DNA from: Acidobacteriota bacterium
GTDB taxonomy: Bacteria; Acidobacteriota; Terriglobia; Bryobacterales; UBA6623
Length of the DNA stretch: 64,000 nucleotides
Reading direction: 5' to 3'
Assembly (NCBI GenBank): GCA_027592785.1
Contig: JAQCLD010000003.1
Location: forward strand, 96 to 64,095
Positions within the stretch are counted from its first letter, which is position 1, and the number at the start of each line of letters is the position of its first letter. The notes under the pieces are model-generated. The model was not told where the DNA came from. It ran no database searches and worked only from the letters and a program-made list of their open reading frames with translations. Of the stretch, positions 37,696 to 40,800 are shown in pieces. A program made the translations under genes and the position numbers.

Positions 37696-37896
37696 GTACT
37701 GGAGTTCGGTGTCGGGGTCGGTGATGACTCCCCACAGCCCGCCGTGCAGAAAGATCGAATCGGAATCCCCGGTGCGGCTGGCGATCTCGCCGAATGGGCC
37801 GTACGAAACCGTTCCCGTTACCGCGCCCGATCCGTCGCTACAGGCAACCGTGTTGCCGCGGTAGTCGTAGTGATGAATGCGGATGTCGCCGCCGAC

Positions 37897-40800
37897 TTAG
37901 TCGTAGAGCAGACCGCCGGCGTAAACGTAGTAGTGCGTCGTGCCGTTCGGGTCGCGTTTCATCACGACCTGAGGCAGTCCGCCCTGCGGGTTGACGCTCA
38001 GGCGGGTGCGTCCGCCGGGACCGTTCAGTGCAGTCAGGTTGTCGGCGGCGTCGTACTCTCTATTGAAGCCGTCGACTTTGACGAGCCGGTTATTGAGGTT
38101 GTACTCGAACTGATGGGAGGCGCCGTCGAGCGGTGCGCTGGTGATGTTATGCCGCGCGTCGTACTGCACCGGCGCGCCGTTCACGGTGTTGAGGCGTCCG
38201 TCGAACAGGCGGGTCATGGTCATCGGCAAGGGCAGGTAGGGCGGCGCGGGCGGACCGCCCGATTCCACCGAGACTTGGCCTTCTGCGTCGTAGTCGTAGA
38301 CGTATTCAACAATCACGGCTCCGGTTGAGCGCAGATCGCGGCGGCGCGTCAGCCTTCCGGCCTTGTCGTACTCCATGACGCGCATCACGCCGTTCGGAAA
38401 CAGAATGCTGGTCACCCGAGAGTCGGAGTCGTAACCGAACTGCGTGCGGCGGTTGGACCAGTCGACGACCTCGGTCAGCTGATTGGCTTCGTTGTAGAGG
38501 TAGTTGAGGACCTTGCCGTCGGGGTAAGTTAGCTTGGTGAGGTTGCCGGAGGCGTCGTAGGCGTAGCGCAGCGACGTGCCGTGAATGTCGGTGAATTTAG
38601 TAACTCGATCCAGGGAGTCGTACTCGCGCTGGAGTTGATTGCCAGACGGATCGAGGCCGCCGGAGTCGACGTTGACGCGCAGCAGATTGCCGTTCGCGTC
38701 GTAGACCATGTTGCGGTTGCCCGGCGAACCGCTGCCGACGTAGGTGAACTTCGTCATGCGCCCGGCGTCGTCGTATTGGTAGTCGCGGCGCGTCCCGCCG
38801 GGCAGCCTGTCCTGGGTCAGCTGGTAGGCTTCATCCCAGTTGAACTGCACTTGGGCTACGCTGCCCGCTGGGGGCTCGATGGCCCTTACGCGGTTGGCCT
38901 GATCGTAGGAGAAGGAAGTGCGTCGACCGGCTGCATCTGTGAGGGCTTGGACGACGTCATCGGAGAAGTATTCCTTCTTAAACACGCGGCCCGTCGAGTC
39001 TTCGACCTCGATCAGGCGATCTAGTTCGTCGTAACGAAAGTGCGTCACGCGACCAACGTTATCGGTGACCATGACCGGATTGCCGACGGCATCGTAGACG
39101 GTCTGGATTTTGGCGCCCAAAGCATCGACGACCTGGATAGGCAGATCGCGGTTGTCGTAGACGACGCTGCGAACCAAGCGATCTTCGCCGTCGTAGATAG
39201 CAACGATGTTGCCGACCGCGTCGTACTCGCGCCGGGAGCTGTTGCCGACACCGTCGATTGTTCGAACGAGGCGACCGGCGACGTCGTACTCGGTTTGCGT
39301 CGATCGGCCCAGCGGATCGATGGCGGCGACCAGCCGGTCTTCGGCATCGTAAACGTAGGCGGCGGTATCGCCCAGAGCGTTGGTTCTGGAGACGAGGTTG
39401 TTGTTGCGGTCGTAGGACAGAGTCGTCTGATTACCTTTGAAGTCGACGACGCGGATCAGCCGGTTGCGCACATCGAACTGCTTGGCGTCGGTGTCTCCCA
39501 GCGGGTTCGTCTGTTCGACGACGTTCAGCCGTTCGTCGTATTTGAGCTGGGTTTCGCGACCCTCCGCGTCGGTCAGCGATGTCGGGTAGCCAAGGGCATC
39601 GTAGTCGGTCTTCTCGATCTTGCTGCCGCCCGCATCCAGGCGGCGGGCACCGGTAATCATGCCTCCGGTGTAGGTGTACTGGACTCCGGCGCCGTCGTCG
39701 AGCAAGTTCTGCACGAGCTGGCCGTTGCCGCCGTACTGCTTATCAGTGCGGTGTCCTAGCGCGTCTTGTACGCGGCTCACGTTGCCGTTGTTGTAGTTGA
39801 AGGACGTCTCGCGCCCCTTCGCGTCGGTAAATCTCGTGAGGTTGTGCTGCGAGTCGTAACTCATCTGGCTGACGTTGAACGCGGGATCGGTCACGCTGAT
39901 CAGGTTGCCGTTGCCGTCGTAGCGGAACTGAGTGCTGCGGCCGAGAGGGTCCTTGATGCTGGTGCGCTCGCCTTTGCCGTTGTAGGTATAGAGGGTCTGC
40001 GCGCCGAGAGGGTCGACGTAGCGGATCAGCCGGTATTCGGCATCGTGTTCGAACACCTGTTGCGCGCCGGTGCGATCCGCATAGGTCGTCAACGCTCCGC
40101 CGGAAACGGTGTCCGCGTAGATGAATGTGCCGAGCAGCGTATCGTCCCGACCGTCGTCCTGGGCGATGACGCGGGCGCGGCCGTCGTAGACATTGGCGAA
40201 CAAGCGCTCGCCGTCGGCGTCGGAAGCCTGCACGAGCAGCCGTCCGGCGTTGTAGGTCAAGTAAGTCGGATAAGTGCGGTCGGAAACGGAGAAGATAAAG
40301 CCGTTGAGCCGACCGGTGGAGCCGGCCTGGTCGTCAACAATCACCAGCCTCCAAGCCCCTTGCGGATTCTCGCCCTCAAACTCTTGCAGCACGACGCCCT
40401 GCGCGTCGTAGACGGACGCACTGGGTTTAGCCAGCAGGTCTTGAAGTTCCACGACGGTCCCTTGGGGCGAAATGAGCGAGATCGTGATGTCGTTGAGCCG
40501 CTGGTGTTCGACGTTTAAGATGTTGAGGCTCAACAGGCCCATGGGCTCGGAGCGGCTCACGTTGACGGTATGCACCAGGCCAGCCGGATTGTTATCGGGA
40601 ATGTCTTTGGGTACGAAGGAGCTGCCGTTGGCGGCATCGAGCGTGGTGGGATTGTGCAGAGCGCGCAGACGGCCCTGGCTGTCGTAGAGAAAGTGCGTCT
40701 GACGGCCAGCGGGATCGGTTAGATGAGCGATGCGGATGGACCCCGACGAGGGATAGTTGAACTTAATTTCCTTACCGCTTACCGGTTCTACGACATTCGA

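What the first reader, a model, noticed from the sequence alone, without database searches (positions are those of the whole stretch)
37696..37899. Rhs/YD polymorphic-toxin gene split by a single in-frame TAA just before the shell-closing core and toxin tip
ORFs 37897-41469 and 36700-37695 are in the same minus-strand frame, because both upper coordinates are divisible by 3. My hand translation across the junction reads HYYVYAGGLLYD [TAA, 37899-37897] VGGDIRIHHYDYRGNTVACSDGSGAVTGTVSYGPFGEIASRTGDSDSIFLHGGLWGVITDPDTELQYMRFRWYAPQLKQFLSKDDHIGDITDPASLNRYAYAGNNPVSFNDPTGE. The 66 codons after the stop contain no ATG, GTG or TTG. They still continue the YD pattern into the conserved Rhs core end (PxxxxDPxG-type self-cleavage motif, here PVSFNDPTGE). 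So one protein of about 1555 aa is encoded but is truncated exactly before the part that plugs the shell and carries the toxin. Three explanations are possible: a recent nonsense pseudogene (a disarmed toxin), an assembly or sequencing error, or leaky readthrough that keeps toxin dosage low.
Basis: seen in the sequence. Interest (0 to 1): 0.72.

Follow-up and report, generated by a model that had tools for sequence, protein, structure and literature searches.

The report
Recent nonsense mutation in Rhs gene
A soil Acidobacteria gene for a large shell-type (Rhs) toxin carries a real, very recent single-base change (GAA to TAA) that cuts the protein off before its shell-closing plug and cargo; this is an ordinary young loss-of-function allele, not a recoding signal.

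Summary
A TAA at 37899-37897 on the minus strand interrupts an otherwise continuous 1556-codon Rhs reading frame. The 398 codons after it encode the Rhs-associated core (TIGR03696, E 2.9e-16) and a 283-aa C-terminal cargo.

- **Origin of the stop:** About 20 orthologues, including the closest (P0124, 1556 aa), are intact single ORFs. The two nearest loci have GAA (Glu) at this codon. The change is therefore one G>T step (C>A at plus-strand 37899).
- **Not a sequencing error:** The TAA appears in four assemblies from four libraries, made by two pipelines. One of them differs from the window by 2 SNPs.
- **No decay downstream:** dN/dS is 0.087 after the stop and 0.108 before it. Lineage-specific amino-acid changes are 7 vs 9 after and 49 vs 55 before. 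The mutation is therefore very young.
- **No sign of recoding:** UAA-G is a strong terminator. TAA ends other genes in the window. The stop is not conserved, no stimulatory RNA structure follows it (z = -0.05), and there is no credible restart codon.

Best reading: a young nonsense pseudogene, or disarmed allele, of a Sec-exported Rhs family. NCBI annotates it as two proteins. This is ordinary and of low interest. The gene family itself has some uncharacterised features.

The parts
37897..37899 (-). In-frame TAA nonsense codon. The ancestral codon was GAA (Glu), so the change is C>A at plus-strand 37899.
   Evidence: The sequence is shown. Both nearest orthologous loci, L004 and L002, have GAA. 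Of 20 intact homologues aligned across the site, 14 have E, 3 have D and 3 distant ones have V. The TAA is present in L001, L005, L007 and L008, from four libraries.
37897..41370 (-). The 5' part of the Rhs gene: 1157 codons plus the TAA. It encodes a Sec-type signal peptide (MPRYSIIPLLVLLSFAPLAEA/Q), the DUF6531 plug, a proprotein-convertase P-domain and the YD-repeat shell. Alternative annotated starts are the ATG at 41394 (NCBI, 1165 aa) and the TTG at 41469 (the mechanical ORF).
   Evidence: See (RHS_repeat E 2e-97 with 14 stretches; YD_repeat_2x E 4e-81). P0002 and P0121 are exact matches. Orthologue P0124 starts at MPRYS.
40999..41235 (-). DUF6531 (PF20148). In solved Rhs structures this domain forms the N-terminal plug of the shell.
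   Evidence: One search gives E 7e-09 at 36.3 bits against a 24.1 cutoff. Its role as the N-terminal plug comes from PMC10684867.
40294..40518 (-). Proprotein convertase P-domain (PF01483), inserted between the N-terminal plug and the YD repeats.
   Evidence: One search gives E 1e-13 at 51.6 bits. The domain is present in all close family members (Pfam column).
37552..37896 (-). The first 115 codons after the stop. They encode the last YD hairpins and the Rhs-associated core (TIGR03696 at 37555-37803). The core contains the C-terminal plug and aspartyl-protease motif SKD-DHIG...X22...NDPTGE. Both conserved Asp residues are intact.
   Evidence: See (E 2.9e-16; motif alignment across 22 homologues). 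One search aligns this stretch to the C-terminal domain of solved RhsP (8h8a). Only 2 window-specific changes occur at columns that are otherwise invariant, Y>H and F>C.
36703..37551 (-). C-terminal cargo of 283 codons. It has an N-terminal Gly/Ala-rich hydrophobic helical module of about 115-150 aa (glycine-zipper-like), a low-complexity basic linker, and a conserved terminal motif (36703-36849): NxGxxGxYGEFxHWxLY...PLPNNPNxPLxEF-COOH. The natural stop codon TAA lies at 36700-36702.
   Evidence: There is no Pfam hit. A profile search found 1138 hits, and the glycine-zipper part also occurs in other Rhs proteins ahead of GIY-YIG or deaminase tips. The AlphaFold model puts helices at residues 2-114 with pLDDT falling from ~78 to ~59, and below 50 over most of the rest.
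35408..36697 (-). Conserved partner gene of 429 aa: signal peptide, one YD repeat, an fn3 domain and the Solibacter C-terminal domain. It starts 2 nt after the natural Rhs stop, so it is probably translationally coupled to the Rhs gene.
   Evidence: The gene is syntenic in L002 and L004. In distant family members L009 and L010 a partner follows the Rhs gene: YD repeat plus fn3 in L010, and a YD repeat in the truncated L009 partner.

Best explanation
A single, real and evolutionarily very recent G>T transversion changed a Glu codon (GAA) to TAA at codon 1158 of a 1556-codon Rhs gene. The gene is Sec-exported and belongs to an uncultivated Acidobacteriota population.

Translation should end there, because UAA is read by both release factors. 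The product would be a shell fragment of about 1157 aa. It would lack the last YD hairpins, the C-terminal plug with its aspartyl autoprotease, and the encapsulated 283-aa membrane-active cargo. The allele is therefore a young loss-of-function ('disarmed') allele, that is, a nascent pseudogene.

The 398 downstream codons still look perfect only because too little time has passed for decay.

What is shown: the stop, its ancestral state, its presence in independent assemblies, the intactness of all orthologues, and the lack of decay. What is inferred: that the truncated product is non-functional, that the downstream part is untranslated, and that the tightly coupled partner gene (35408-36697) may suffer polarity effects.
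For: - **Ancestral state:** The TAA sits where the two closest orthologous loci have GAA, with identical flanking codons. Of 20 intact homologues aligned across the site, 14 have E, 3 have D and 3 distant ones have V. P0124, 1556 aa and 87% (before the stop) and 92.5% (after it) identical, has E.
- **Orthologues intact:** All full-length family members are single ORFs of 1455-1642 aa.
- **Real in the DNA:** The same TAA occurs in ENA assemblies of two BioSamples (ERZ23495042 and ERZ23495043) and in Logan assemblies of two runs (SRR2027816 and SRR2027830). One assembly differs from the window by 2 SNPs in 15.5 kb. Two NCBI MAG records carry the same split proteins.
- **No relaxation downstream:** dN/dS between the window and L004 is 0.087 after the stop and 0.108 before it. 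Window-specific versus L004-specific amino-acid changes are 7 vs 9 after and 49 vs 55 before (Fisher p = 1). Changes at columns invariant in the other sequences are 8/175 after and 23/473 before. There are no indels or further stops.
- **Standard genetic code:** TAA terminates 8 of 28 long ORFs in the window, including the natural end of this gene.
- **Good assembly quality:** The neighbouring genes are intact.
- **Precedent:** Rhs pseudogenes are common in surveys, for example 132 of 294 Rhs sequences in Ralstonia (10.1101/2025.05.08.652813).
Against: - The complete absence of decay after the stop is also what continued translation would predict.
- The allele is the consensus in at least two samples, so it is not strongly deleterious there.
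- Read-level allele frequencies could not be inspected, so a minority intact allele may coexist.
- Loss of function of the truncated product is inferred from other Rhs proteins, such as Tse5 D1141A (PMC10684867), and was not tested.
Confidence: 0.86

Rival explanations
1. Functionally meaningful leaky readthrough. A near-cognate tRNA (Gln, Lys, Glu or Tyr) occasionally decodes the TAA. A small dose of full-length toxin is then made, and the stop acts as a dosage valve.
For: The downstream 398 codons are intact and show dN/dS of 0.087. The allele is the consensus in several samples.
Against: - The stop is not conserved. Every orthologue, including one about 89% identical, has a sense codon.
- UAA is the least leaky stop codon in bacteria and is read by both RF1 and RF2 (PMC5289835).
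- The 131 nt from the stop onward fold no better than shuffled controls (z = -0.05), and no Rfam element is present.
- TAA is a normal terminator in this genome, and no suppressor tRNA is found in the window.
- Low dN/dS is equally expected from a very recent mutation.
Confidence: 0.04
2. A functional split gene. The downstream part is translated on its own from an internal or non-canonical start, and either works in trans with the shell fragment or acts as a free toxin. NCBI annotates a 392-aa protein from an ATT codon, and Prodigal aa from the ATG at 37695.
For: Two gene callers emit a downstream protein. The downstream frame is intact.
Against: - There is no ATG, GTG or TTG for 67 codons.
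- The ATG at 37695 has no Shine-Dalgarno pairing (+0.1 kcal/mol) and would start inside the core (MRFRWY...), removing part of the plug.
- The ATT has only background-level pairing (-5.4 kcal/mol; 23% of random positions reach -5 or lower).
- The fragment has no signal peptide.
- No orthologue has a two-gene layout.
- Short homologues that seemed to begin at the same site were followed up in two cases, and both are contig-edge fragments.
Confidence: 0.04
3. A sequencing or assembly error: the true base gives a sense codon and the gene is intact.
For: It is a single-base difference from an intact frame. G>T is a known oxidative library artefact at low allele fractions (stated from general knowledge).
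Against: The identical TAA is found in four assemblies built from four different libraries with two different pipelines, and one of these carries 2 unrelated SNPs. The Logan contigs run through the site without a break. The other genes of the window are intact.
Confidence: 0.02
4. An orphan or displaced Rhs C-terminal module. On this view the downstream piece is a silent spare tip kept for recombination, not the remainder of the upstream gene.
For: Rhs loci in other bacteria often carry start-less orphan core-CT fragments (10.1101/2025.05.08.652813).
Against: The upstream ORF has no core or CT of its own. The two pieces are colinear, codon for codon, with single-ORF orthologues and differ from them by one base at the junction. 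The total length matches P0124 exactly.
Confidence: 0.01

Closest known systems
Rhs pseudogenes and truncated rhs genes catalogued in genome surveys (for example Xanthomonas, Ralstonia, Pectobacterium and Dickeya; bioRxiv 10.1101/2025.05.08.652813)
   Same: An Rhs gene disabled in one lineage while close relatives keep it intact. The phenomenon is frequent (79/604 in Xanthomonas, 132/294 in Ralstonia).
   Different: Those cases are mostly N-terminal truncations or IS disruptions, defined by length classes. Here the lesion is a single datable point nonsense mutation with no other damage, in a Sec-exported family from uncultivated Acidobacteriota.
Tse5 (PA2684) of Pseudomonas aeruginosa, an Rhs shell that encapsulates a membrane-inserting pore-forming CT (PMC10684867, PMC9637101)
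   Same: Both have a DUF6531 N-terminal plug, a YD shell, and a C-terminal plug carrying two catalytic Asp residues that cleave off a hydrophobic, membrane-active cargo. In Tse5, loss of plug protease activity (D1141A) abolishes function. That is the basis for calling the truncated allele here non-functional. The PDB sequence match to Tse5 has E 1.6e-19.
   Different: Tse5 is delivered by a T6SS and has a small cognate immunity protein, Tsi5. The protein here has a Sec signal peptide and an inserted P-domain. Its motif is DxxxG-X22-DPxG, with E rather than L before the predicted cleavage site. It has no PAAR, VgrG or immunity gene nearby, and its cargo is conserved within the family.
Bacterial teneurin-like YD-shell proteins (PDB 9pt5, 9ifo) and other solved Rhs proteins (RhsP 8h8a, Tse15 8uy4, RhsA 7q97, Rhs1/Tre23 7pq5)
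   Same: These give the best solved-structure sequence matches (E 1e-30 to 5e-22). The teneurin-like protein aligns across the stop position and into the core (query 7-458).
   Different: The relationship is only distant, and none of them has the P-domain or this cargo. The comparison was by sequence only, with no structural superposition.
Glycine-zipper membrane-depolarising toxin tips of other polymorphic toxins (EsxX, PMC12744356; ionophoric CdiA-CTs, PMC11630599)
   Same: A Gly/Ala-rich run of hydrophobic helices placed directly after the delivery domain. The module here recurs in other Rhs proteins.
   Different: No sequence homology to those toxins was tested or shown. In some Rhs relatives the module precedes a nuclease or deaminase domain, so it may be a translocation module rather than the toxin itself.

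Membership tests
Rhs / YD-repeat encapsulating toxin | Many YD (RHS) repeats that form the shell | tested here: met
   PF05593 E 2e-97 with 14 stretches, and TIGR01643 E 4e-81 with 9 stretches. PDB Rhs matches have E values down to 1e-30.
Rhs / YD-repeat encapsulating toxin | N-terminal plug domain (DUF6531) | tested here: met
   PF20148 E 7e-09 at 36.3 bits against a 24.1 cutoff.
Rhs / YD-repeat encapsulating toxin | Rhs-associated core with the aspartyl-protease motif (DPXGX18DPXG) ending at the cleavage site | tested here: met
   TIGR03696 E 2.9e-16 in the post-stop frame. Both Asp residues are present and conserved across the family, in the variant form D-x-x-x-G X22 DPxG-E. The motif definition comes from PMC10684867.
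Rhs / YD-repeat encapsulating toxin | Shell, core and cargo encoded as one continuous polypeptide | tested here: not met
   A TAA at 37899-37897 separates the shell from the core and cargo in the window. The feature is met in all orthologues.
Rhs / YD-repeat encapsulating toxin | C-terminal tip hypervariable between otherwise similar proteins (polymorphism) | tested here: inconclusive
   Within this family the whole CT is conserved down to 37% overall identity. At the superfamily level, the Gly-rich module is followed by different tips (GIY-YIG, YwqJ deaminase) in other Rhs proteins.
Rhs / YD-repeat encapsulating toxin | Small cognate immunity gene immediately downstream | tested here: not met
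   The next gene starts 2 nt after the stop and encodes a 429-aa secreted protein with a YD repeat, fn3 and Soli_cterm domains. No small ORF lies between them.
Rhs / YD-repeat encapsulating toxin | Autoproteolytic release and toxicity of the CT | not testable with these tools
   Needs protein expression. The AlphaFold model of the CT has mean pLDDT 52.
Programmed stop-codon readthrough (recoding) | Stop codon conserved at the site among orthologues | tested here: not met
   Of 20 intact homologues aligned across the site, 14 have E, 3 have D and 3 distant ones have V; none has a stop. The two nearest loci have GAA.
Programmed stop-codon readthrough (recoding) | Leaky stop and context, or a stimulatory downstream RNA structure | tested here: not met
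   The stop is UAA followed by G, and UAA is the least read-through stop codon (PMC5289835). The fold z-score is -0.05. Rfam gives only a sub-threshold chance hit.
Programmed stop-codon readthrough (recoding) | Coding constraint continues after the stop | tested here: inconclusive
   dN/dS after the stop is 0.087. That divergence accumulated before a recent mutation would have arisen, so it does not discriminate between the hypotheses.
Nonsense-mutation pseudogene (young) | One-step derivation from a sense codon that is present in intact orthologues | tested here: met
   GAA to TAA, with identical flanking codons.
Nonsense-mutation pseudogene (young) | The mutation is real in the DNA of the population | tested here: met
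   Four assemblies from four libraries and two NCBI MAG records carry it. Read-level allele frequency could not be tested.
Nonsense-mutation pseudogene (young) | Relaxed constraint or secondary lesions downstream | tested here: not met
   There is no excess of substitutions, no indels and no further stops. By rough inference, this places the event within the last few per cent of the branch since the split from the L004 lineage.
Rhs orphan CT module | A start-less core-CT fragment lying downstream of a complete rhs gene that has its own core and CT | tested here: not met
   The upstream ORF ends without a core or CT. The pieces are colinear with single-ORF orthologues.

The most novel reading that the evidence does not exclude
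The TAA allele is kept because it is useful. One option is rare near-cognate readthrough that supplies a trace of full-length, self-cleaving toxin, so the stop acts as a dosage valve for a membrane-active cargo that has no immunity gene. Another option is that the toxin-less shell fragment, or the separately initiated core-cargo piece, has a function of its own. In either case, a bacterial Rhs toxin would be regulated by a UAA recoding or splitting event.
Probability: 0.04. Interest if true: 0.55.

Novelty: new member of a known kind. Interest (0 to 1): 0.17.

Why it matters
The main value is for annotation and as a clean example. NCBI records list the two halves as separate proteins: a 'proprotein convertase P-domain-containing protein' of 1165 aa, and an 'RHS repeat-associated core domain-containing protein' of 392 aa that starts at ATT. 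They should be a single pseudogene.

The case also shows toxin loss caught almost at the moment it happened. There is one base change and no decay, and it is the consensus allele in all four assemblies from the site (two BioSamples, two sequencing runs). A population study of gain and loss of Rhs weapons in soil Acidobacteria could use this. It does not open a new mechanism.

The gene family has more open questions than the stop codon does. It is Sec-exported, it carries a P-domain, its cargo combines a glycine-zipper module with an NNPN-motif tip, it has a conserved YD-fn3 partner gene, and it lacks an immunity gene.

Tried and rejected
- **DNA pattern scans.** I scanned for the junction with any codon at the stop position (CTGCTCTACGACNNNGTCGGCGGCGAC). 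JGI metagenome contigs gave 0 hits. GTDB genome contigs gave 1 hit, a chance match inside an unrelated substrate-binding protein on a Thermomicrobiales MAG contig (L003). No near-identical strain with a sense codon was found this way.
- **Word-indexed search with the CT alone.** The protein search returned only 2 hits, because the Gly/Ala-rich words swamped the candidate list. I replaced it with the exhaustive profile search.
- **Apparent recurrent splits.** Several representatives of 354-399 aa begin within a few residues of the stop site (VYEE..., LLYEE..., MGLAYE...). That looked like recurrent splitting. The two I examined are ORFs open to the contig edge (L010), or preceded only by Nextera adapter sequence (L009). 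They are therefore assembly fragments with internal start codons chosen by the gene caller. I rejected the idea of recurrent splitting, though the other five fragments were not checked.
- **Structure of the CT.** The AlphaFold2 model built from a 16-sequence alignment had mean pLDDT 52.3 and pTM 0.36. That is too poor for a fold search, so none was run.
- **Readthrough elements.** I looked for an RNA structure or a known RNA family that could stimulate readthrough and found none.
- **Suppressor tRNA.** No tRNA genes are present in the window.
- **Literature by accession.** A search for the sample, run and protein accessions gave no papers.
- **Alternative genetic code.** Rejected, because TAA, TAG and TGA all end long ORFs that have Pfam support.
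Full report
**1. The observation**

On the minus strand the sequence reads CTG CTC TAC GAC TAA GTC GGC GGC GAC ATC CGC ATT CAT CAC TAC GAC. This translates as LLYD*VGGDIRIHHYD. The plus strand at 37897-37899 is TTA. 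ORFs 37897-41469 and 36700-37695 share one frame. Translation of 36700-41550 shows a single internal stop. No ATG, GTG or TTG occurs in the 67 codons after the stop, and the first is the ATG at 37695.

**2. What the two pieces are**

The part before the stop has these features:
- a Sec-type signal peptide (MPRYSIIPLLVLLSFAPLAEA/Q);
- DUF6531 (E 7e-09);
- a proprotein-convertase P-domain (E 1e-13);
- RHS repeats (E 2e-97, 14 stretches);
- YD_repeat_2x (E 4e-81).

The part after the stop matches the Rhs-associated core TIGR03696 at its aa 32-114 (E 2.9e-16). A 283-aa region with no Pfam match follows it.

Against solved structures, the best matches are Rhs proteins (RhsP 8h8a, Tse15, RhsA, Rhs1/Tre23, Tse5) and bacterial teneurin-like proteins. 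The C-terminal domain of RhsP, residues 1048-1151, aligns starting three residues after the stop. In Tse5 the corresponding region is the C-terminal plug. It carries the two catalytic aspartates, and mutating D1141 abolishes cleavage and competitive function (PMC10684867).

In this family the motif is D-x-x-x-G X22 D-P-x-G-E. Both aspartates are conserved and intact in the window.

**3. Orthologues**

A search with the read-through protein found about 20 full-length family members of 1455-1642 aa. All are single ORFs, at 37-76% identity over 76-100% of the query. Of the 20 intact homologues aligned across the stop column, 14 have E, 3 have D and 3 distant ones have V.

The cluster look-up revealed a closer relative, P0124. 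It is 1556 aa, intact, and has E at the site. The window's read-through length from MPRYS is also 1556 codons.

Codon alignment with the loci of P0124 (L004) and P0001 (L002) shows GAA in both, with identical neighbouring codons. The lesion is therefore one G>T step, which is C>A at plus-strand 37899. Synteny is conserved in both loci: M16 peptidases, GT87, Rhs, then the YD-fn3 partner.

**4. Is the stop real?**

The exact truncated protein and the downstream ORF occur on several contigs:
- ENA ERZ23495043 (SAMN03444961, 59,235 bp);
- ENA ERZ23495042 (SAMN03444948, 83,627 bp);
- Logan contigs assembled independently from SRR2027816 and SRR2027830;
- two NCBI MAG records (MDA0203950.1/MDA1233377.1 and MDA0203949.1/MDA1233376.1).

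All four fetched loci contain the TAA context. Three are identical to the window. The SAMN03444961 contig (fetched as L001 and L006) differs from it at two other positions, 39496 and 36025. A random consensus error is effectively excluded. Read-level allele frequencies could not be examined.

**5. Age and constraint**

- Between the window and L004, dN/dS is 0.108 before the stop (1157 codons, dS 0.64) and 0.087 after it (398 codons, dS 0.43).
- Using L002 as the outgroup, window-specific versus L004-specific amino-acid changes are 49 vs 55 before the stop and 7 vs 9 after it (Fisher p = 1).
- At columns invariant in eight other orthologues, the window deviates at 23/473 positions before and 8/175 after. 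The sister sequence P0001 deviates at 18/468 and 9/176.
- There are no indels relative to L004 and no second stop.

As a rough inference, neutral evolution over even about 5% of the window's branch would have added on the order of ten non-synonymous changes, and none is seen in excess. The mutation is therefore very recent relative to the split from L004. It is still older than, or has spread across, the two haplotypes that differ by 2 SNPs.

**6. Recoding alternatives**

- TAA is an ordinary terminator here. It ends 8 of 28 long ORFs, including this gene's natural end.
- No tRNA genes lie in the window.
- UAA is the least read-through stop codon and is recognised by both release factors (PMC5289835).
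- The 131 nt from the stop onward fold no better than shuffled sequence (z = -0.05). Rfam gives only one sub-threshold chance hit.
- The stop is not conserved in any relative.

For independent initiation, the ATG at 37695 has no Shine-Dalgarno complementarity and would begin inside the core. The ATT chosen by NCBI's pipeline has only background-level complementarity. The fragment also lacks a signal peptide.

A cluster of 354-399-aa database proteins begins near the same site, which looked like recurrent splitting. The two examined are contig-edge fragments, and one contig begins with Nextera adapter sequence.

**7. Conclusion on mechanism**

The best-supported reading is a young nonsense allele. 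Translation stops after residue 1157, so the product lacks the last YD hairpins, the plug and protease, and the cargo. By analogy with Tse5 and other Rhs proteins, it cannot encapsulate, cleave or deliver anything.

The partner gene starts 2 nt after the natural Rhs stop. It may therefore lose translational coupling, which is an inference. The position 'just before the plug' has no special significance. 343 of 1555 codons are one step from a stop, and any hit among those before about codon 1270 would have the same effect.

**8. The family**

The cargo is not hypervariable within this family. The whole 283-aa region aligns in relatives down to 37% overall identity. It has invariant glycines in a Gly/Ala-rich hydrophobic N-terminal part and a strongly conserved terminal motif, NxGxxGxYGEFxHWxLY...PLPNNPNxPLxEF-COOH.

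An exhaustive profile search found 1138 hits at E of 1e-3 or lower. Matches to the whole cargo that were examined sit at the C-terminus of Rhs proteins or their contig-edge fragments, mostly about 1500 aa. The first ~150 profile positions alone recur in other Rhs proteins, between the core and a different terminal domain: GIY-YIG in P0214, and YwqJ-like deaminase in P0253 and P0207. This suggests the Gly-rich part is a shared membrane or translocation module, and that the last ~100 aa are this family's own tip.

AlphaFold predicts four hydrophobic helices over residues 2-114, with block pLDDT falling from about 78 to about 59. Most of the rest is below 50 (mean pLDDT 52).

No small immunity gene follows the Rhs gene. 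Instead there is a secreted protein with one YD repeat, fn3 and the Solibacter C-terminal domain. A similar partner (YD repeat, plus fn3 where enough sequence is present) immediately follows the Rhs gene even in distant family members.

**9. Novelty and verdict**

Rhs pseudogenes are common. This one is a clean point-mutation example in an uncharacterised acidobacterial Rhs family, and it is currently annotated as two proteins. It is a new member of a known kind and of low interest. The residual chance that the stop is functionally exploited is about 4%.

Noticed in passing
window 37102-37551 (-); P0214 aa 2711-2859, P0253 aa 2836-2946, P0207 aa 333-463: The Gly/Ala-rich, glycine-zipper-like first ~150 aa of the cargo recur in other Rhs proteins. 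There they sit between the Rhs core and different terminal toxin domains (GIY-YIG nuclease, YwqJ-like deaminase). This suggests a shared pre-toxin membrane or translocation module that has no Pfam model.
   Followed up: partly
window 36703-36849 (-): The extreme C-terminal motif NxGxxGxYGEFxHWxLY...PLPNNPNxPLxEF-COOH is strongly conserved in family members down to 37% overall identity. It ends in a terminal Phe (Leu in one orthologue, P0003). It has no Pfam match, a low-confidence model and unknown function.
   Followed up: partly
window 35408-36697 (-); L002 10386-11687; L009 1203-1922; L010 1222-3123: A secreted partner protein (signal peptide, one YD/RHS repeat, fn3, then the Solibacter C-terminal domain TIGR03437 in close relatives) immediately follows the Rhs gene, even in distant family members. 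L010 has the YD repeat and fn3; the truncated L009 partner shows only the YD repeat. In the window it starts 2 nt after the Rhs stop. It occupies the place where an immunity gene would be expected, and its role is unknown.
   Followed up: partly
window 40294-40518 (-): A proprotein-convertase P-domain (PF01483) is inserted between the DUF6531 plug and the YD shell. It is present throughout the family, and NCBI names the truncated protein after it. Together with the Sec signal peptide and the absence of PAAR or VgrG in the adjacent genes examined, this points to a delivery route other than T6SS.
   Followed up: no
NCBI proteins MDA0203949.1 / MDA1233376.1 (P0123), equivalent to window 36703-37878 (-): NCBI's annotation gives the post-stop piece as a separate 392-aa protein that starts at an ATT codon (written as M). 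The locus is not flagged as a pseudogene. Prodigal-type calls instead start at the ATG at 37695 (331 aa).
   Followed up: yes
L004 3515-6551, 12674-13965, 19688-20671: In the closest relative's contig (ENA ERZ25039549 contig_17120), the M16 peptidases, the YD-fn3 partner and the sulfatase are each split into two called genes, while the Rhs gene is intact. This looks like indel noise from a long-read assembly rather than biology. It was not checked at DNA level.
   Followed up: no
L009 1-19: The Logan contig SRR28370423_1383226 begins with AGATGTGTATAAGAGACAG, the Nextera transposase adapter. This creates a false in-frame stop ahead of a partial Rhs ORF.
   Followed up: yes
L002 3324-4310: The orthologous locus of P0001 has a CsgG-family gene inserted between the M16 peptidase pair and the GT87 gene. 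The window and L004 lack it.
   Followed up: no
window 39496 and 36025: These are the only two differences between the window and the SAMN03444961 contig over 15.5 kb. One is a synonymous change inside the Rhs shell region. The other is a non-synonymous change in the partner gene, since P0125 and P0126 differ.
   Followed up: partly
window 37842 and 37875 region (-), post-stop codons 8 and 19: The only two window-specific changes at otherwise invariant core columns are Y>H and F>C, and both lie within 20 codons after the stop. Overall the count shows no excess, so this is probably coincidence.
   Followed up: yes
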